Below, piece after piece: positions 30,290-55,420 of a stretch of 64,000 nucleotides of DNA. The DNA comes from Escherichia coli. Its GTDB lineage: Bacteria > Pseudomonadota > Gammaproteobacteria > Enterobacterales > Enterobacteriaceae. Each line of letters opens with the position of its first letter. Position 1 is the stretch's first letter. The stretch lies in assembly GCA_025336685.1 (NCBI GenBank), contig GCA_025336685.1_4717.1; one strand, 5' to 3'. Under the pieces are notes generated by a model. That model had not been told where the DNA came from and did not search any database. It was given only the letters and a program-made list of their open reading frames with translations. Made by a program: the position numbers and the translations under genes.

Positions 30290-31723
30290 TTACTTTTTCG
30301 ATGACGCCTTCTCAAGAATCTTGAAAAAGGTCATACCTATACCGACAACAGCCGCGGTTATACTCGCAGCGGCTTTCCAAACATCGACGTTACGTTGACG
30401 TCGTGCTTCTTCCGCTTCACGTTGTCTTTTTGCCTCTTCATCACGTCGACGTATCTCAGCAGCAAACTCGTCATGCTTACGTTTGGCTTCTTCGTCTCGA
30501 CGACGAAGTTCAGCGACGAATTCTTCATGTTTGCGTTTAGCCTCATCATCACGACGTTTTAAATCAGCTTGATAATCTTCGTGTATTTGTCTACGTAGAT
30601 CATCTTGACGTTTCATTTCGGCTTGGTGTTGTTCCATCCTACGTTTTTGTTCGTCTTTAAGCTGATCGAGTTCGGCTTTATGTTGTTCGTCGCGCAGCTT
30701 TGCGTCGGCGCGATGCGCTTCATGCATCTGTGCGATAACTGCCTTGTGTTCATCCGCCATACGTCGCATTTCAGCCATCACCCCTTTAAGGGTTTCTTCT
30801 GACGACTTACGTTCGTAGCTGCGTTGGTCGAAATCATTTTTGTAGGCTTCTTTTTGGATGGGATCGCGCCAATGCAATGCCGATTCACGCGTCGGAAAAA
30901 CATTGTACTTCCACATCTCTTTTTCCAAATCTTCGACCGGTACGAAGATGGAGTCATTATTCCCGAAGGTAACCAACATACCTGGCGCGCCTGCTCCATT
31001 CGTTGGTTTTATTTCGAACGCTTTCCCCAGCACGTTAACCCATAGGCTATACGGATTATGAAAGTCGGGTGGCGTCCAGTGGATAGTGAGTTGCGTTCCG
31101 AGAATCCGGAAACCCTCTGTCTTTCCTGTTAAACTACGCGCACATGTTGCGATGTAGGGGTGATCAATCCCTTTCGTAACATGGTCTGCGCTTTTGTATT
31201 CTCCTTTAACTTTTACGATTGCCACGTTGATTTGCGCGACATAAATAGGTTGATTAAAGTTCAACGTGTTGAGGTCAATTTGACATATCTCGTCCAGCGT
31301 ATCGTACCAGTCTTGCTGGTCTAATAGACGCGGTATTTTCTCTGTGTTAACGATGCGACGGATATGCGGTTTCCTTATCGCGTAACCTGTACCATTTTTA
31401 ACACGGAGTATATCCCGACGTCTACCCGCGTAGACGAAGTTTCTGAATGCACCATTCGCATTAGATACGTCATGGCTGTCAACTATTACAGGACTACGAA
31501 ATTTTGAACGTCGTACGATCCTGAATGTATTACTGTCCTCAACTCTACCAGGAATGTACTGGAACATATTGTCGGAGGTGATAACCAACACGGTATGGCC
31601 GGATTCATTAATACATGCCCACCCTAATTCCAGGTCATACAACGGTTCAGCATAACCGTCAATGCGATATGCGTACCATCCCCACGGTTCGAACGCGGTA
31701 TCACATATTGGCATGGAGGGCAT
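30290..31723 (-). CDS. tail-anchored membrane protein: N-terminal globular domain, ER/K-rich helix, C-terminal TM segment
   Basis: 477 aa, ATG with GGAGGTG RBS; residues about 330-450 are E/R/K/D/Q/H repeats (EEAKRKHEEF..RRRDEEAKRKHDEF..); C-terminal AAASITAAVVGIGMTFFKIL then KASSKK. Confidence 0.75.
   Translation of the reverse strand: MPSMPICDTAFEPWGWYAYRIDGYAEPLYDLELGWACINESGHTVLVITSDNMFQYIPGRVEDSNTFRIVRRSKFRSPVIVDSHDVSNANGAFRNFVYAGRRRDILRVKNGTGYAIRKPHIRRIVNTEKIPRLLDQQDWYDTLDEICQIDLNTLNFNQPIYVAQINVAIVKVKGEYKSADHVTKGIDHPYIATCARSLTGKTEGFRILGTQLTIHWTPPDFHNPYSLWVNVLGKAFEIKPTNGAGAPGMLVTFGNNDSIFVPVEDLEKEMWKYNVFPTRESALHWRDPIQKEAYKNDFDQRSYERKSSEETLKGVMAEMRRMADEHKAVIAQMHEAHRADAKLRDEQHKAELDQLKDEQKRRMEQHQAEMKRQDDLRRQIHEDYQADLKRRDDEAKRKHEEFVAELRRRDEEAKRKHDEFAAEIRRRDEEAKRQREAEEARRQRNVDVWKAAASITAAVVGIGMTFFKILEKASSKK
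30380..30560 (-). repeat. imperfect tandem repeat of about 54 nt inside 30290..31723
   Basis: Repeated cttacgtttggcttcttcgtctcgacgacgaagttcagcgacgaattcttcatg-type units encoding the RRRDEEAKRKH(E/D)EF(V/A)AE(L/I) repeats. Confidence 0.5.
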
Positions 31724-31931
31724 CGCTCACCTCCATCAGATTGAAAATTATCATGCATAACGCATTTCCCTTTTCTTGTTCTTATCAAACTGACAGCCGA
31801 CGGTTTCCAGTATCGCCCCCAGCGCGAGAACGACCTTACGTGTTGTCTATGCCTTATTAATCGCAGGCTTCTGTCACCTAGGTAATGTAAGCGTCAAATT
31901 TTTTCTATTCGCAACGATAAACGGCATAAAT

Positions 31932-31960
31932 CTCCCCCAACCCTTACGGGCTGAGGGAGG
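31932..31960 (-). terminator. conserved hairpin element, degenerate copy, 3' of major structural gene
   Basis: CTCCCCC-AA-CCC-TTAC-GGG-CTGA-GGGAGG about 95 nt downstream of the stop of 32057..34279. Confidence 0.4.
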
Positions 31961-32056
31961 CTGACTTATGTATCACGGTGCCGGATGAATGTCCGCAATG
32001 AAACCATCCGCAACGTTGTCGTCAAGAATATCATCCAACGAAGCAGCTACGGTAGT

Positions 32057-34279
32057 TCAGTTAGTCTGAACAGGCAGCTTGATGTTTTCGGTGTAGACCT
32101 TACGCAGGTTCACAACGTTAATCAGACCCAGCAGCGGGCAGTTGTTAACGAAGCGGCAGCGAGGCTGAACCATGGTTTCTTTAGAAACCTGACCGTTACG
32201 GGTAACCTGAGCAACAGATACCAGTTCCGGTACGTACAGGAACATACCGAAGGTCAGCGGATCCGGAGAACCCTGGATACCACGAGACAGGGTCACGAAG
32301 ATCTTATCACGCAGCAGAACGTTCGGGTTATCTACAACCACGAAGTTGAAGCTTACACCAACGGTACGGAAATCACCATCGGTCTGCAGGAACTGCGGGA
32401 TGTAGTTGTCAGTTGCTACCACGCAACGCGGTTTCTCATCAGCGTTGGAAGACAGCAGCTGCAGAGCTGGCTGATAACCAGACTCGGAGTACATGCGATA
32501 TGCCATCTCACGAATCACGTTCATGATCGCAGCGGACACTTCAGCACGACGTTCTGCAGTGGTGGTGCCCTGAACAGATTTCGCCAGGTCCAGATTGATT
32601 TCTTCGAACCACGGACGGATCAGGTAACGACCGAAACCTTCGATCTGGATGTCACCGAACTGACGGAAGCGAGAGGTCGCAACCGCTTTCAGTGCATCTT
32701 TGTAGCTGAACAGTTTCTCAACCATCAGGTTGTCGAAACGTGCGTTAGCAGCTTGGATCAGAACGTCCAGGTCAGCAGCGTTTTCTTCCCAATCCAGCGG
32801 ACGAGGAATGGAGAACGGAGCCAGCAGGCCGATTGCATAACGCTCTTGCTTCATGTTGAAGTCAAGGTGTTTACCACGTTCACGACGGTTGCTGTTGTTA
32901 CGGCGAATACGCAGTTCGTAACCAACCAGTTTGAAGCTCAGGTCGTCAGCCAGGTCTTTAAATTCTTGGCTCTTACGCGGCTGTTCGATGTTGTCCTGAT
33001 CAACCAGGCGATACAGTTCAGCGTTAGCACCGTTAACACGCAGACCTGCTTTCTCTACGTTGGAAGAACCGTAAACTTCGATAGCCAGCTGAGCAGCAGA
33101 TTTCGCATCGATGATGTCCTGCAGCGCTTCGGCTTTCGCACCTTTAACGTCAACGGTGTTCTCATCAACGAAGATGGAGTGGGTGTCGAACGCCAGGGTC
33201 ATTTTGCGGAAGTCGCCTTCCAGGGATTTCTGGAAACCGTTGGTAATCAGACCGGATACGTCGAACGGAACGTAAGAGGTCTTGCTGTGCTTGGCTGATT
33301 TGATTTCCACCAGGATTTTGGTCAGCGTGATCTGAGCATCCAGCGCATCGGTGTTGTCGCTGTAACCGTTAGCCAGAATGCTATCGTCTTCAGCGATACC
33401 GATCATGTCGATCAGTTTATCAACAGCCAGGTAAGACGTTTTGTAAGTTACGCCTTTAATCTCGATGTCGCGCGGAGCAACGATAGTTTTGTCAACGAAG
33501 TACTGCGCGTTAGCATCGTCGGCACGATAGATCGGATGCAGATCGGTCACGTCGTTGGACAGAACGTCGTTGTACATGAACGCATCCAGCAGCGGACGAC
33601 GTACCCAATCAGCCGGAGTACCGTCAGCGTTACGACGCAGGTGGTTGAACACCAGCGGACGACGGAAAGATACGTCGTAACCGATCTGGTTCGGAGCCAG
33701 AACGATGGTGTTGTACAGTTCGTTACCCATGCGGCTCAGACGAGAAGCCTTCACGTTGAACACAACGGAGTACGGCATCATGTCACGCAGTTCTTTCTGG
33801 TCGTAGGACAGCTGAACCAGTTCTTCAGATTCGCAACCGCAGGAATCAGCAGCCATCATGACGAAGTTAGAGCTGTCAACTTCACGGCCAGACGGAGTGG
33901 TGCTGATGTTCATGGAACGTGCTTGTTTAGCATATTCTACCGGGTTGCCATGAGCCAGCATGATCAGTGCTGCTGCACGAGCCTGCTGTGCGTTCATGGT
34001 GAACAGCTGTTCTTCAATACGCTGCTTCTCTTCCGGAGTGGTGGTTTCGAAGCCCAGCATGGACAGAACCGGTTCTTCTGCTTTACGGATGTCGCTGCTG
34101 AAGCTCTTAACATCCATATCGTTAACCAGTTTGTCCATGGATTTGAAATCAACCTTAGAAGCAGATTCCATAGACAGGAAGGTGTTCTCCAGACCTTTGT
34201 CTGCTGGTTTGCTACCATTAGCGGTCAGGAACTGGCGAGTGGCCGCGACCTGTTGGCTAAGAAGGGTTTTATCATTCAT
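32057..34279 (-). CDS. major virion structural protein (major capsid protein or tail sheath; capsid favoured)
   Basis: 740 aa, ATG with AAAGGA RBS; strongest codon bias in the window; size typical of jumbo-phage capsid or sheath proteins; identity not verifiable without a search. Confidence 0.8.
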   Translation of the reverse strand: MNDKTLLSQQVAATRQFLTANGSKPADKGLENTFLSMESASKVDFKSMDKLVNDMDVKSFSSDIRKAEEPVLSMLGFETTTPEEKQRIEEQLFTMNAQQARAAALIMLAHGNPVEYAKQARSMNISTTPSGREVDSSNFVMMAADSCGCESEELVQLSYDQKELRDMMPYSVVFNVKASRLSRMGNELYNTIVLAPNQIGYDVSFRRPLVFNHLRRNADGTPADWVRRPLLDAFMYNDVLSNDVTDLHPIYRADDANAQYFVDKTIVAPRDIEIKGVTYKTSYLAVDKLIDMIGIAEDDSILANGYSDNTDALDAQITLTKILVEIKSAKHSKTSYVPFDVSGLITNGFQKSLEGDFRKMTLAFDTHSIFVDENTVDVKGAKAEALQDIIDAKSAAQLAIEVYGSSNVEKAGLRVNGANAELYRLVDQDNIEQPRKSQEFKDLADDLSFKLVGYELRIRRNNSNRRERGKHLDFNMKQERYAIGLLAPFSIPRPLDWEENAADLDVLIQAANARFDNLMVEKLFSYKDALKAVATSRFRQFGDIQIEGFGRYLIRPWFEEINLDLAKSVQGTTTAERRAEVSAAIMNVIREMAYRMYSESGYQPALQLLSSNADEKPRCVVATDNYIPQFLQTDGDFRTVGVSFNFVVVDNPNVLLRDKIFVTLSRGIQGSPDPLTFGMFLYVPELVSVAQVTRNGQVSKETMVQPRCRFVNNCPLLGLINVVNLRKVYTENIKLPVQTN

Positions 34280-34428
34280 TGAAAGTATCCTTTACAGAAT
34301 TAACTTATATAAGTCGGTCGATAGACCATAGCGTACACGCGTGCATGCGCCACTATAGTATCAGTAAACACTTACCGTTATTGAGGTCGTGATACAACAC
34401 TAAAAATGCCGCATAACTTTTCCCTACG

Positions 34429-34833
34429 TCACAAACGACGCAGGCGATAATGGATGGAACGATTGGTGCAATATGAACGGAACAGCGGCAATTGCGCAAC
34501 TTCCGCAAGACTCATATTAATTCGCAGGTGTTCAATAACGGCGCTGTAGTTATCAGCAATACGATCGCTCAATAACTCTTCTGCCAATAAAGGAAGACAA
34601 TCGACAACAATCGCGATCACATCCTCATTAACATAACGCACCCGAACACTCAACGGACGTTTGTCTGGGTTGTAAGTTGGATCCGCCAAACGACGTTCAA
34701 TATCACGCGGATAGCTCGTCAGTAAATGGTAATAACCATTGTCATAACGATTGATGTACTCACACAGCACACCAACGTTCTTCTCTGGCGGTAAACCTGT
34801 TTCGTCATAGTGGATACGCAAACATACCACCAA
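34429..34833 (-). CDS. hypothetical protein (start uncertain)
   Basis: 134-aa ORF without ATG near the 5' end (TTG/GTG only); protein-like composition. Confidence 0.4.
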   Translation of the reverse strand: MVVCLRIHYDETGLPPEKNVGVLCEYINRYDNGYYHLLTSYPRDIERRLADPTYNPDKRPLSVRVRYVNEDVIAIVVDCLPLLAEELLSDRIADNYSAVIEHLRINMSLAEVAQLPLFRSYCTNRSIHYRLRRL

Positions 34834-35050
34834 GCAGGTTGTTAAGATGGACCGCAGGGTTCGCTTGTTCGTGTTCTTTCGTGATGAAGAAAGGCACGTT
34901 CTGGGCCGCGAAATAAAAACCTACATCATTGGGCGATAGTATGCCGAAAAGACTTTTAGGATCCAATAACACCTGTAAGTCATCACGCGCATTTCGAATA
35001 ATCGCGTGTTCTACCCAATTCGGAACGACGAGATATCGGAGTTCCTTCAT
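34805..35050 (-). CDS. small hypothetical protein (81 aa)
   Basis: ATG with GAGG RBS 8 nt upstream. Confidence 0.5.
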   Translation of the reverse strand: MKELRYLVVPNWVEHAIIRNARDDLQVLLDPKSLFGILSPNDVGFYFAAQNVPFFITKEHEQANPAVHLNNLLGGMFAYPL

Positions 35051-35089: not shown

Positions 35090-36700
35090 ATGGACCCAAA
35101 ACAGATAGCCATTAAGATTATTACGTTACTGTTTCGTAACGCACAATTGAACCATCCCGATCCCAGTACGATCGACCATGTTAAATCCGTCTTAGATAAA
35201 GTCGAACCCCCGAAAAACCATCTCGCTACGGACATAGATAGAGAGGTTTTCAACAACCTGATGAATACCATTCATTGGATGTTGGAACAACCGTTATCGG
35301 AACCTTTCGACAAACAACAGTTGTTACAAAGGATACGTTTAGATTGCCTTGAGCAAAGCAATCTTTACGAGATTCTTGCCGACGGACTGTACGATATCGA
35401 AGACGATGCTCATATCAGTAAGGTCTGTTCGCTTTATTACAACGAATTGCGTAACCTGATTACCCGCCGTCGTGTTTTCGAAACCTTTAGAAACACGTAC
35501 ATGGATATCAGTAACGGGCGACTTGGGGATAAAGAATTTTTCGACGCGATGGCGAATTTGAAATTATCGCTTGACAGTATCGAAATGGATACCGAAAATC
35601 CCGAAGAGATGTCGTGTATGGTTGATGGCTTTATTGCTGACAGCGAAGACGATATCGAGAAAGTCGAACGTATGTTCGTTAAAGCGATGGAACGTAACAG
35701 TCCTGAAGGTGGGTTTGTAACCGGCTGGCAAGGTTTTAATAAAATGTTGGGGTCGGTCGGCGTTTTACGTCGCGGTACCTTAGGACTGATTGGTGCGATG
35801 CAGCACCGAAATAAATCGGGTGTGTTGTTAAAACTGTTCACGCATCTGGCATTGTACAACAAACCTCATTTCTTTTTTCCGGAGCGAGCAAAGAAAGCGT
35901 TACTGATTCATTTGTCAACAGAAAACGAAGTAGAAGAAAACACGCTTCAGATATACAAGAACATGCGAGAACAGGAAACAGGCGAATATGTCGATATTCG
36001 TAAGATTGACCCTCGCGAGGCATCACGTTATGTGTTGAAGGTGTTCAACGATGCGGGTTTCTCTGTTTGTATGCGTCGTGTTGACGGGATGAGTTACAAA
36101 CAACTCGCTAATCTCATCGACCATTTCGAACGCATGGGTTATGAGGTCATGGCGTTGTTCATTGACTATCTGAAAATGTTCTCATCGGAAGGGCTGGATA
36201 GAAATGGACCGACCGGCGCATGGCTCCAAGAACTCTTCAACAAAGTTCGTAACCTCTGCAGTGTTAAACGTATTTTAGGTATGACCGTACACCAGCTGTC
36301 ATCCGACGCGAAGATGCGTGCACGTGACGGTAACGATGAAGAGTTTGTTGACCAAGTCGCAGGCTTAAGTTACTGGGATGGTTGTAAAGGGATTGACCGT
36401 GAGATCGATCTTGAAGTGATTGTTGATATCGTTAAGGAGCCAGGTAAACGTCAAAGCTGGCAGGTCTTTGCGTTAGGGAAAGACCGTCAACCGGATAACG
36501 GTTCAACGAAACCTGAGGATAAACATTTCACAATGCCATTCCAAACCATCGGGATGCTTCCTGATGATTACGGTAAGAAAGCAGTATACTGTCGTAAGGT
36601 TGGTGGACAACCAGTCTCCGAGGGAGGTAAAGGTCCGTGGAACAAGTTCGATGAAAACGCAGCACCAAGTAATGAATTACAATTTGATTTAGAATTTTAA
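35090..36700 (+). CDS. hypothetical protein (about 536 aa)
   Basis: ORF track 35006..36700 starts at GTG; ATG at M29 has AAAGGA RBS and avoids overlap with divergent 34805..35050. Confidence 0.7.
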   Translation: MDPKQIAIKIITLLFRNAQLNHPDPSTIDHVKSVLDKVEPPKNHLATDIDREVFNNLMNTIHWMLEQPLSEPFDKQQLLQRIRLDCLEQSNLYEILADGLYDIEDDAHISKVCSLYYNELRNLITRRRVFETFRNTYMDISNGRLGDKEFFDAMANLKLSLDSIEMDTENPEEMSCMVDGFIADSEDDIEKVERMFVKAMERNSPEGGFVTGWQGFNKMLGSVGVLRRGTLGLIGAMQHRNKSGVLLKLFTHLALYNKPHFFFPERAKKALLIHLSTENEVEENTLQIYKNMREQETGEYVDIRKIDPREASRYVLKVFNDAGFSVCMRRVDGMSYKQLANLIDHFERMGYEVMALFIDYLKMFSSEGLDRNGPTGAWLQELFNKVRNLCSVKRILGMTVHQLSSDAKMRARDGNDEEFVDQVAGLSYWDGCKGIDREIDLEVIVDIVKEPGKRQSWQVFALGKDRQPDNGSTKPEDKHFTMPFQTIGMLPDDYGKKAVYCRKVGGQPVSEGGKGPWNKFDENAAPSNELQFDLEF

Positions 36701-54070: not shown

Positions 54071-55396
54071 TTACTGCTGTGCTGCGTCAGCCGGTTTCTC
54101 GGCCGCCTGGCCGCCGTACTCTTTCAGCATTTTAGCAGCGCCATCCAGGACAGCGTTACCTGCCTGAACACCGTATTTCATCAGACCAGTCTGTGGGTTC
54201 ACGTAGCAGGAACGTGCGTCTTTCAGTGCAGACAGTACAGCTTGAACACGCTGTTTTTCCTGAGCGGAAACTTCGCCTTTCTTAGACAGATCAGCTTCCA
54301 TTGCGTCGCCGAATTTAACAGCGTCTTTGAAGCCCTGGGATTTCTTACCGATGTTGCCTTTCAGCGCCAGCAGTTTGTCAGCCAGTACTTCAACACCGCT
54401 AACCGCAGCGGCCAGCTGATTCAGGGACAGGACGGTAGCTTCAACTTCTTTTGCTTCACCGGAGCGTTCCCAGGTTACTTTACCATCGTTGGCTTTGAAA
54501 CCCCAGCCCGCAGGACCAGCAACGTCAGCAATCGCCGGAGCGTTCAGTTTATCGGCGTACTCGGTGTGAGATTTAGCAACAACAGTGTTGACGAATTTAT
54601 CAGCACGATCGTCAGCAGCCTTCATTGCTTTCTCGAAGGTGTCGGCGATTTTGGTCGCACCGGTAACCAGATCGTCGCCACCGATGTAACCTGAAATGCC
54701 ACTACCCAGGGTAACTTTGGCATTTTTAGCAGCGCCTTTACGCTTGGCGATCATTTCTTTCAGTTTAGCAGCGCGTGCTTTCAGTTTGGTCGCGCCGTCG
54801 AAGATGCGATCCATGAACTTCACGAAGGTTTCCCAGGAAGTTTTCAGGAAGTTCTTGATGGTTGCCCACAGTTTCTGCCACCATTTTTGTTCTTCCAGGA
54901 AGATCATGTTGGTTGCATCGTAACGGGAAGCAGAACCACCGAAGCTTTCGAAGGACGGCATGGTTTCCGGCAGTTTGAAACCGATAGTACCACACAGGCG
55001 TTTCAGGTTACGCATGTGTTCCTGAGCGGTTTGTGCAGACATACCACCGTCTTTCAGGTAGCTTTCGGTTGCAACAACGGTTTCCGTCAGTTCATCCATG
55101 GCTTCATCCATGGCTTCTGCGGTTTCGTCGTCTTTTGCAATTTCGATAACAACAGCGTCAACCTGCTCGATATCGCCACGAACTTCGATAGCCAGTTCGG
55201 TTTCAGCTGCAGTATCTTCAGCGATTTCAGCGCGTTCGGTCAGTTCAGCTACAACGGTTTCATCTGCTGCTGCTGCGGCATCAGCTGCCGGTTCTGCTTC
55301 AACGGTTGCCGCTGCATCCGGATCGATCTCAGCAGCCAGTTGAACCAGCTGTGCGTTAGATGGATTTGCGACAAGACGATCAAAAATAGAAGGCAT
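54071..55396 (-). CDS. abundant Ala/Glu-rich head protein candidate (family D-like; scaffold or internal protein)
   Basis: 441 aa, ATG with AAAGGAA RBS; strong codon bias; N-terminal 100 aa acidic with many AxE motifs. Confidence 0.75.
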   Translation of the reverse strand: MPSIFDRLVANPSNAQLVQLAAEIDPDAAATVEAEPAADAAAAADETVVAELTERAEIAEDTAAETELAIEVRGDIEQVDAVVIEIAKDDETAEAMDEAMDELTETVVATESYLKDGGMSAQTAQEHMRNLKRLCGTIGFKLPETMPSFESFGGSASRYDATNMIFLEEQKWWQKLWATIKNFLKTSWETFVKFMDRIFDGATKLKARAAKLKEMIAKRKGAAKNAKVTLGSGISGYIGGDDLVTGATKIADTFEKAMKAADDRADKFVNTVVAKSHTEYADKLNAPAIADVAGPAGWGFKANDGKVTWERSGEAKEVEATVLSLNQLAAAVSGVEVLADKLLALKGNIGKKSQGFKDAVKFGDAMEADLSKKGEVSAQEKQRVQAVLSALKDARSCYVNPQTGLMKYGVQAGNAVLDGAAKMLKEYGGQAAEKPADAAQQ

Positions 55397-55420
55397 AATT
55401 TGTTTCCTTTACAATAAATT

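What the first reader, a model, noticed from the sequence alone, without database searches (positions are those of the whole stretch)
32057..34279. 740-aa major structural protein: capsid versus tail sheath unresolved
This gene has the strongest codon bias in the window, a strong RBS and a downstream hairpin element, as expected for the most abundant virion protein. At 740 aa it is far larger than HK97- or T4-type capsid proteins and matches the size class of jumbo-phage major capsid proteins, but tail sheath proteins are similar in size. The N-terminal 130 aa contain (A/S)-x-E motifs that could be prohead-protease sites.
Basis: inference. Interest (0 to 1): 0.4.

Follow-up and report, generated by a model that had tools for sequence, protein, structure and literature searches.

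The report
Goslar-type jumbo phage major capsid protein
This gene encodes the major capsid (head shell) protein of a Goslar-like, nucleus-forming jumbo phage of E. coli, 98.5% identical to a protein whose capsid structure is already solved, so the capsid-or-sheath question is settled and the finding is ordinary.

Summary
The 740-aa ORF at 32057..34279 (-) is real. It is the major capsid protein (MCP) of a PhiKZ-like (Chimalliviridae, Goslarvirus-type) jumbo phage. It matches Pfam PF25620 PhiKZ_MCP end to end (E 1.6e-217) and PHROG 3231 "major head protein". It is 98.5% identical to Goslar gp41, whose cryo-EM structure is deposited (PDB 11bt, 36za).

For gp41 the literature reports a T=27 shell of 1,615 copies. 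The fold is HK97 with an inserted I domain, and the first 157 residues are not seen in virions.

The tail-sheath alternative is excluded. Goslar's sheath is gp218, about 150 kb away in that genome, and shows no similarity to this protein.

- Strongest codon bias: confirmed (Nc 30.5, lowest of 50 ORFs).
- Downstream hairpin: confirmed (31932..31960, -27 kcal/mol, conserved).
- "Strong RBS": not confirmed (AAGGA, rank 30 of 45).
- S/A/G-x-E motifs: present in the propeptide, only about twofold enriched.

The likely maturation site lies past residue 130. It is S151-E-E153, four residues upstream of the position that aligns with PhiKZ's mapped E163|N164 cut.

Verdict: already known, low interest.

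The parts
32057..34279 (-). Major capsid protein gene (740 aa plus stop). It is the ortholog of Goslar gp41 and PhiKZ gp120.
   Evidence: ORF. PF25620 at 724 bits, covering profile positions 2-635 of 635. PHROG 3231. PDB 11bt/36za. 97.5% nt and 98.5% aa identity to Goslar gp41. Nc 30.5, the lowest in the window.
33809..34279 (-). Codons 1-157: the N-terminal propeptide, absent from the mature shell in Goslar. It carries seven S/A/G-x-E motifs.
   Evidence: The Goslar cryo-EM models start at S158. Motif count. tblastn alignments to many distant MCPs begin at residue 158/159. This region is poorly conserved in the alignment.
33821..33829 (-). Codons 151-153 (S-E-E), the inferred maturation cleavage motif nearest the first ordered residue. 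G148-C-E150 lies directly upstream of it.
   Evidence: Motif positions. PhiKZ GLE163|N164, 201phi2-1 ALE|N, SPN3US-type ATE|Y and RTH11 AME|A all align with window V155-Q-L157|S158, which has no Glu at P1. The assignment to S-E-E is an inference.
32057..33808 (-). Codons 158-740 plus stop: the mature HK97-fold shell subunit (N-arm, I-domain linkers, I domain, P and A domains, C-arm).
   Evidence: Near-identical (8 substitutions over residues 158-740) to the 583-residue modelled chain of PDB 36za. Domain description from the Goslar preprint.
34288..34292 (-). Shine-Dalgarno core AAGGA, 8 nt upstream of the ATG. It is of ordinary strength.
   Evidence: Sequence. Duplex energy -5.4 kcal/mol, rank 30 of 45.
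34280..34428 (-). Upstream intergenic region, presumed to hold the late promoter and 5' UTR. It is 100% identical to Goslar, whereas the flanking coding DNA is about 97-98% identical.
   Evidence: Alignment A2, columns 632-781. No sigma-70-like promoter on this strand. The promoter role is inferred and was not tested.
31932..31960 (-). G+C-rich hairpin in the 333-bp region downstream of the MCP stop codon. It is probably a transcript 3'-end or terminator structure.
   Evidence: dG -27.2 kcal/mol, z -5.0. It occurs once in the window. It is identical in Goslar and 10 further contigs. It fails the T-run terminator scan.
34429..35050 (-). Upstream neighbour, the homolog of Goslar gp42. That protein is a component of the inner vertex-binding complex and sits in the same position as PhiKZ gp119. 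In the window it is split by a 1-nt insertion.
   Evidence: Synteny. gp42 listed in the vertex-binding complex. Extra C at about 34813, absent from 12 related loci.
35090..36700 (+). Divergently transcribed DnaB-like helicase (Goslar gp43). It is a conserved synteny partner of the MCP in PhiKZ-like phages.
   Evidence: PF20307 divDNAB, E 2.2e-120. Synteny in Goslar, 201phi2-1 and SEGD1.

Best explanation
The gene encodes the major capsid protein of a Goslar-like, PhiKZ-type (Chimalliviridae) jumbo myophage.

Inferred from the 98.5%-identical Goslar gp41:
- It is made late in large amounts as a 740-aa precursor.
- About 1,615 copies, arranged as hexons and 11 pentons, build a T=27 icosahedral shell of about 147 nm.
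- The mature subunit (from about residue 154-158 to 740) has the HK97 fold, with a large I domain inserted at the E-loop position.

Inferred from family knowledge:
- The N-terminal propeptide of about 153-157 residues is removed during prohead maturation. The enzyme would be the phage's S80 head-maturation protease, the ortholog of Goslar gp212 and PhiKZ gp175, which lies outside this window.
- Cleavage most likely follows S151-E-E153, with additional cuts at the other S/A/G-x-E motifs that break up the propeptide.

The extreme codon bias reflects the very high copy number of this protein.
For: Shown here:
- Full-length match to PF25620 PhiKZ_MCP, E 1.6e-217, 724 bits against a cut-off of 27.
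- PHROG 3231 major head protein, E 6.5e-165.
- phmmer hits to solved capsid chains: Goslar MCP (11bt, 36za), PhiKp24 (8bfl, E 1e-61) and PhiKZ gp120 (8y6v, E 3e-55).
- 97.5% nt and 98.5% aa identity to Goslar gp41, with 11 aa changes among 52 differing codons, which indicates purifying selection.
- Conserved helicase / gp119-like / MCP gene order.
- 226 phage records carry homologs annotated as major capsid or head protein.
- Lowest Nc in the window. The runner-up is a phiKZ_IP internal head protein.
- A gp175-type protease exists in Goslar: gp212, E 9e-25 against PhiKZ gp175.

From the literature:
- Goslar gp41 forms a T=27 shell with 1,615 copies and an HK97 fold. Residues 1-157 are unseen, gp41 is among the high-copy proteins in virion mass spectrometry, and GFP-gp41 localises with capsids (bioRxiv 10.64898/2026.04.21.720040).
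- PhiKZ MCP is cut at E163|N164 (PMC11297242).
- SPN3US gp75 loses 130 residues after an A-x-E motif.
Against: Nothing argues against the capsid assignment.

The details of maturation remain open:
- At the position aligned with the PhiKZ, 201phi2-1, SPN3US-type and RTH11 cleavage motifs, the protein reads V-Q-L|S, with no Glu at P1. The exact cut is therefore unproven.
- The protease gene is not in the window.
- The single-sequence AlphaFold model of residues 1-200 was uninformative, with pLDDT 37.5.
- The virion-level facts come from Goslar, not from this exact phage.
Confidence: 0.97

Rival explanations
1. It is the contractile tail sheath protein, the other abundant 650-750-aa virion protein of jumbo myophages.
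For: Only its size (740 aa against 690 aa for Goslar gp218) and its high expression signature.
Against: No sheath family appears even at E <= 1 in Pfam; PhiKZ_MCP is the only hit. BLASTP against Goslar sheath gp218 finds nothing, with a best E of 0.16 over 66 residues. In Goslar the sheath gene lies at 197-199 kb, about 150 kb from gp41. The ortholog of this protein is modelled in the capsid, not in the tail.
Confidence: 0.005
2. It is a capsid-fold paralog with a specialised role, such as a vertex or penton protein like T4 gp24 or a decoration protein, rather than the main shell subunit.
For: Some large phages, T4 among them, encode an MCP paralog for the vertices (background).
Against: In Goslar the same gp41 forms both hexons and pentons. 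The match to the MCP profile is full-length. The gene sits in the syntenic MCP slot. It has the strongest codon bias in the window. In each related phage genome the query matched a single place (places equal records), so no second copy showed up in those genomes; the window itself was not searched for a paralog.
Confidence: 0.01
3. It is the MCP, but maturation differs from PhiKZ. Either the cut is non-canonical, at L157|S158 with no Glu at P1, or the N-terminal region stays attached in a disordered state inside the capsid.
For: The first ordered residue, S158, aligns exactly with PhiKZ's mature N-terminus N164, yet the preceding residues are V-Q-L rather than S/A/G-x-E. The Goslar authors inferred processing only from missing density.
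Against: Canonical S-E-E and G-C-E motifs sit 4 and 7 residues upstream, and four disordered residues at a new N-terminus are unremarkable. All characterised relatives cut after Glu. Goslar has the gp175-type protease. An uncut 157-residue tail on each of 1,615 copies would add about 27 MDa inside the head, by my own arithmetic.
Confidence: 0.12

Closest known systems
Escherichia phage vB_EcoM_Goslar gp41 (YP_009820726.1), major capsid protein; PDB 11bt and 36za
   Same: Same length (740 aa). Identity is 98.5% at the protein level and 97.5% at the DNA level. The flanking genes are the same, the 150-bp upstream region is identical, and the downstream hairpin is identical.
   Different: There are 11 substitutions: D54E, S73T, M74L, T265A, A329T, V376K, Q438E, D442Q, D445E, A566E and L655M. 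Over 25 kb the surrounding genome is only about 95% identical, with 93% coverage, so this is a related strain or species rather than Goslar itself.
Pseudomonas phage PhiKZ gp120 (PDB 8y6v; Pfam PF25620 type member)
   Same: [quoted passage not shown]
   Different: Sequence identity is only about 23-26%. PhiKZ is cut after G-L-E163, and the aligned residues here are V-Q-L157.
Salmonella phage SPN3US gp75 and Klebsiella phage PhiKp24 MCP (PDB 8bfl)
   Same: Homologous jumbo-phage MCPs. SPN3US gp75 also forms a T=27 shell of 1,615 copies and loses a 130-residue propeptide after an A-x-E motif.
   Different: About 25-28% identity. SPN3US is not a chimallin-clade match at the genus level, and the propeptide lengths and sequences are not alignable with confidence.
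HK97 gp5 and T4 gp23 capsid proteins
   Same: Shared HK97 fold, and an N-terminal segment removed by a prohead protease: the HK97 delta domain and the T4 65-residue propeptide, which is cut after Glu.
   Different: No detectable sequence similarity in Pfam. This protein is about twice the size of HK97 gp5 (my own knowledge; that length was not checked here), mainly because of a roughly 225-residue I domain at the E-loop position.

Membership tests
PhiKZ-like major capsid protein (Pfam PF25620 PhiKZ_MCP; PHROG 3231) | Full-length match to the family profile above the curated threshold | tested here: met
   724.1 bits against a cut-off of 27. Residues 98-731 cover profile positions 2-635 of 635. 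PHROG 3231, E 6.5e-165.
PhiKZ-like major capsid protein (Pfam PF25620 PhiKZ_MCP; PHROG 3231) | HK97 fold with N-arm, P, A and inserted I domains, forming hexons and pentons of a T=27 shell | tested here: met
   Met by near-identity to solved chains: 98.5% to Goslar MCP (11bt, 36za), plus significant matches to 8bfl and 8y6v. The architecture is as described in the Goslar and PhiKZ papers. No model of this exact sequence was built here.
PhiKZ-like major capsid protein (Pfam PF25620 PhiKZ_MCP; PHROG 3231) | Conserved gene neighbourhood: divergent DnaB-like helicase, small gp119-like virion protein, then MCP | tested here: met
   Window: helicase at 35090..36700 (PF20307), gp42 homolog at 34429..35050, MCP at 32057..34279. 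The same order is found in Goslar, 201phi2-1 and SEGD1.
PhiKZ-like major capsid protein (Pfam PF25620 PhiKZ_MCP; PHROG 3231) | N-terminal propeptide removed by the S80 (gp175-type) prohead protease after an S/A/G-x-E motif | tested here: inconclusive
   Motifs are present, including S151-E-E153. Goslar models start at S158, and Goslar encodes the gp175 homolog gp212. However, the site aligned with the mapped cuts of relatives lacks Glu, the protease is not in the window, and no N-terminal data exist for this protein.
PhiKZ-like major capsid protein (Pfam PF25620 PhiKZ_MCP; PHROG 3231) | Most abundant shell protein of the virion (about 1,615 copies) | not testable with these tools
   Reported for Goslar gp41 by cryo-EM and LFQ mass spectrometry. 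Here there is only the indirect signal of the lowest Nc in the window.
Contractile tail sheath (PhiKZ gp29 / Goslar gp218 type) | Sequence similarity to sheath profiles or to the sheath of the closest relative | tested here: not met
   No sheath family at E <= 1 in Pfam. BLASTP against Goslar gp218 gives a best E of 0.16.
T4 gp23-type or classical HK97-type capsid sequence families (my own knowledge: Pfam Gp23, Phage_capsid) | Match to those sequence profiles | tested here: not met
   PF25620 was the only hit returned at E <= 1. The relationship to these families is at the level of fold only.

The most novel reading that the evidence does not exclude
The Goslar-type MCP may mature at a non-canonical site. 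Its first ordered residue, S158, aligns exactly with PhiKZ's mapped mature N-terminus, but the preceding residues are V-Q-L rather than S/A/G-x-E. One possibility is that the Goslar-clade S80 protease has a relaxed or altered P1 specificity. Another is that a second trimming step removes L154-L157 after a canonical cut at E153. Mapping the site would show how cleavage specificity drifts in chimallivirus head maturation.
Probability: 0.12. Interest if true: 0.3.

Novelty: already known. Interest (0 to 1): 0.08.

Why it matters
The gene matters mainly for annotation. The exact protein sequence sits on at least 77 public contigs, many of them 236-241 kb long. These come from E. coli and Salmonella draft assemblies and from metagenomes, and where the sequence carries a name it is "hypothetical protein". 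It can now be labelled the major capsid protein of a Goslar-like nucleus-forming jumbo phage. It also serves as a marker that such contigs are phage genomes rather than bacterial DNA.

Biologically it adds nothing new to what the Goslar and PhiKZ capsid structures already show. The one exception is the small open question of where exactly the propeptide is cut.

Tried and rejected
- **Tail sheath.** Rejected: no family hit and no similarity to Goslar gp218.
- **Known RNA element around the gene.** The Rfam scan of 31500..34700 gave only a chance-level mir-880 hit at E 0.27, far below its gathering score. Rejected.
- **Repeated "hairpin element".** The 29-nt hairpin occurs once in the window even with 3 mismatches allowed, so it is not a dispersed repeat.
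- **Classical intrinsic terminator or sigma-70 promoter.** The consensus scan found none on the gene's strand. This is expected for a phage that uses its own RNA polymerases for late genes.
- **AlphaFold with the 6-sequence alignment.** A single-sequence model of residues 1-200 had pLDDT 37.5, so its helices are not evidence.
- **Prohead protease in the window.** tblastn with PhiKZ gp175 found nothing. The gene lies elsewhere, as gp212 in Goslar.
- **Complete E. coli genomes and PLSDB plasmids.** No match to the gene, so this is not a resident prophage or plasmid in finished genomes.
- **Thomas et al. 2012 (PMC3323674).** The paper is not held. The PhiKZ cut site was taken from PMC11297242 instead.
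- **Long antisense ORFs on the + strand** (31985..33298, 437 aa; 33536..34282, 248 aa). Treated as shadows of the strongly biased MCP frame, not as genes. Goslar annotates nothing there.

Full report
**Observation.** The window contains one uninterrupted ORF at 32057..34279 on the minus strand, running from ATG to TGA and encoding 740 aa.

I selected 50 non-overlapping ATG-started ORFs of at least 100 codons and computed Wright's effective number of codons for each. This gene has the lowest value, 30.5. The next lowest is 31.7, and most ORFs lie between 45 and 55. The codon-bias claim therefore holds.

The ribosome-binding site is AAGGA, 8 nt before the ATG. Measured as duplex energy against the 16S 3' end, it scores -5.4 kcal/mol and ranks 30th of 45 ORFs. 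"Strong RBS" is not supported.

The hairpin downstream of the gene is real:
- The core lies at 31932..31960, with an 11-bp stem and a GUAA loop.
- The 56-nt context folds at -27.2 kcal/mol, z = -5.0, and no shuffle folded as well.
- It begins about 97 nt after the stop codon.
- It has only a broken U-tract and is not called by the terminator scan.
- It is unique in the window.
- It is identical in Goslar and in ten other contigs.

S/A/G-x-E motifs occur seven times in residues 1-157, against about 3.5 expected from composition (p about 0.03). The remaining 583 residues also hold seven.

**Identity.**
- Pfam gives a single, full-length hit: PF25620 "Bacteriophage PhiKZ major capsid protein gp120". 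It scores E 1.6e-217 and 724 bits against a cut-off of 27, covering profile positions 2-635 of 635.
- PHROGs gives phrog_3231 "major head protein", E 6.5e-165.
- Among solved structures, the best matches are two Goslar "Major capsid protein" depositions: 11bt (740 residues) and 36za (583 residues, starting at the residue equivalent to S158). Next come the PhiKp24 major head protein (8bfl, E 1e-61) and PhiKZ gp120 (8y6v, E 3e-55).
- The DNA is 97.5% identical to Escherichia phage vB_EcoM_Goslar gp41, which RefSeq annotates as "major head protein".
- The proteins differ at 11 of 740 positions, while 52 codons differ. Most changes are therefore synonymous.
- tblastn finds homologs in 226 phage records, all from jumbo phages of Pseudomonas, Erwinia, Salmonella, Serratia, Ralstonia, Vibrio and others. 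Where annotated, they are labelled major capsid or head protein.

**Context.** The gene order matches Goslar (gp43-gp42-gp41), 201phi2-1 (gp197-198-200) and the SPN3US-type phage SEGD1 (072-073-075):
- a divergent DnaB-like helicase at 35090..36700 (+) (PF20307);
- a small gp42/gp119-like protein at 34429..35050 (-);
- the MCP.

Over 25 kb the window is about 95% identical to Goslar at 93% coverage. It is therefore a Goslar-like phage, not Goslar itself.

The tail sheath of Goslar is gp218, at 197-199 kb of that genome, well outside the stretch this window corresponds to. It shows no similarity to this protein.

**How it works.** The facts below come from the literature on the 98.5%-identical ortholog and its family.

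Goslar gp41 (bioRxiv 10.64898/2026.04.21.720040):
- It builds a T=27 (h=3, k=3) shell of about 147 nm from 1,615 copies, forming both hexons and pentons.
- It has an HK97 fold with N-arm, P, A and inserted I domains and a short C-arm.
- No density is seen for the first 157 residues, which the authors take as evidence of proteolytic processing.
- It is one of the three high-copy reference proteins in virion mass spectrometry.
- GFP-gp41 localises with capsids around the phage nucleus.

Relatives:
- The PhiKZ MCP is cut between E163 and N164 by the gp175 protease (PMC11297242).
- SPN3US gp75 loses 130 residues after an A-x-E motif.
- Goslar encodes a gp175 homolog, gp212 (30% identity, E 9e-25).
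- That gene is not in this window.

My inference is that this protein is likewise made as a precursor and assembled into proheads, and that its propeptide is then cut off and fragmented at the S/A/G-x-E motifs.

**One detail that is not settled.** In a six-sequence alignment, four cleavage motifs fall in the same columns, immediately before a conserved (Y/F)(N/D)(E/Q)K(E/S)(L/Q)RD block:
- PhiKZ-type G-L-E|N (E163|N164 after correcting for PA7's shorter annotated start);
- 201phi2-1 A-L-E|N;
- SPN3US-type A-T-E|Y;
- RTH11 A-M-E|A.

In the window protein, and in Goslar, those columns read V155-Q-L157|S158. S158 is exactly the first residue modelled in the Goslar structure. The nearest canonical motifs are S151-E-E153 and G148-C-E150.

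The simplest reading is a cut after E153 with four disordered residues. A non-canonical cut at L157|S158 cannot be excluded without N-terminal data. Many distant tblastn alignments start at residue 158/159, which fits a mature domain beginning there.

**Comparison and novelty.** This is a member of a well-characterised family, and the structure of a near-identical ortholog is solved. It is already known.

Practical value remains. The exact sequence is present on at least 77 contigs, the longest about 241 kb. They come from E. coli and Salmonella draft assemblies and from metagenomes, and where the sequence carries a name it is "hypothetical protein". It is absent from finished E. coli genomes and from PLSDB plasmids.

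**Things that led nowhere.**
- Rfam found nothing credible around the gene.
- There is no sigma-70 promoter or T-run terminator on the gene's strand.
- AlphaFold could not be run with the outside alignment, and the single-sequence model of residues 1-200 was of too low confidence to use (pLDDT 37.5).
- Thomas et al. 2012 was not available.

**Verdict.** This is the major capsid protein of a Goslar-like jumbo phage. I put confidence at about 0.97.

Noticed in passing
window 34429..35050 (-), extra C at about 34813: The homolog of Goslar gp42 (206 aa), a component of the inner vertex-binding complex, is split into an 81-aa and a 134-aa ORF. The cause is a single extra C (GCGTATCCACTATGA against GCGTATCACTATGA). 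Goslar and all 10 other contigs that carry the identical MCP have the intact 206-aa gene. This is either an assembly error or a strain-specific frameshift in a structural gene.
   Followed up: yes
window 54071..55396 (-): This gene has the second-strongest codon bias in the window (Nc 31.7). It encodes a 441-aa phiKZ_IP (PF12699) internal head protein, a family that the Goslar preprint reports among the most abundant unmodelled virion proteins. Codon bias in this window therefore seems to track virion copy number.
   Followed up: partly
window 34285..34296 (-) and 55402..55413 (-): The two most codon-biased genes share the 12-mer TGTAAAGGAWAC, which ends exactly 5 nt before the ATG in both. 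These are the only two matches in the window with up to 1 mismatch. By count alone this is not significant (12 of 100 shuffles gave 2 or more), but the identical placement is curious.
   Followed up: partly
window 34280..34428: The 150-bp intergenic region upstream of the MCP is 100% identical to Goslar, while the coding DNA on either side shows scattered substitutions. This suggests constrained regulatory sequence, perhaps a late promoter or 5' UTR. It contains a run of short palindromes (GCATGC, ACGCGT, GTAC).
   Followed up: no
window 31985..33298 (+) and 33536..34282 (+): Long antisense ORFs of 437 and 248 aa lie opposite the MCP gene. They are most likely shadows of its strong codon bias. 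Nothing is annotated there in Goslar.
   Followed up: partly
loci L010-L019; cluster of P0001: The identical MCP occurs on 236-241 kb contigs in E. coli and Salmonella isolate draft assemblies (NCBI GCA_ records) and in metagenome assemblies. It is absent from complete E. coli genomes and from plasmid collections. Near-complete Goslar-like jumbo phage genomes therefore turn up repeatedly in isolate sequencing runs, whether through a carrier state or contamination.
   Followed up: partly
window 31724..32056: An unusually long (333-bp) non-coding gap separates the MCP gene from the next gene (the gp40 homolog). It is about 96% identical to Goslar with three small indels. Besides the conserved hairpin, the first about 60 nt after the stop codon also fold into a stable stem, and the whole 161-nt stretch has z = -3.3.
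   Followed up: partly
L009 23818..24246 (Goslar 211817..212245): The Goslar record annotates a group I intron next to the virion RNA polymerase beta-subunit genes. This lies outside the window and was seen only while looking for the protease gene.
   Followed up: no
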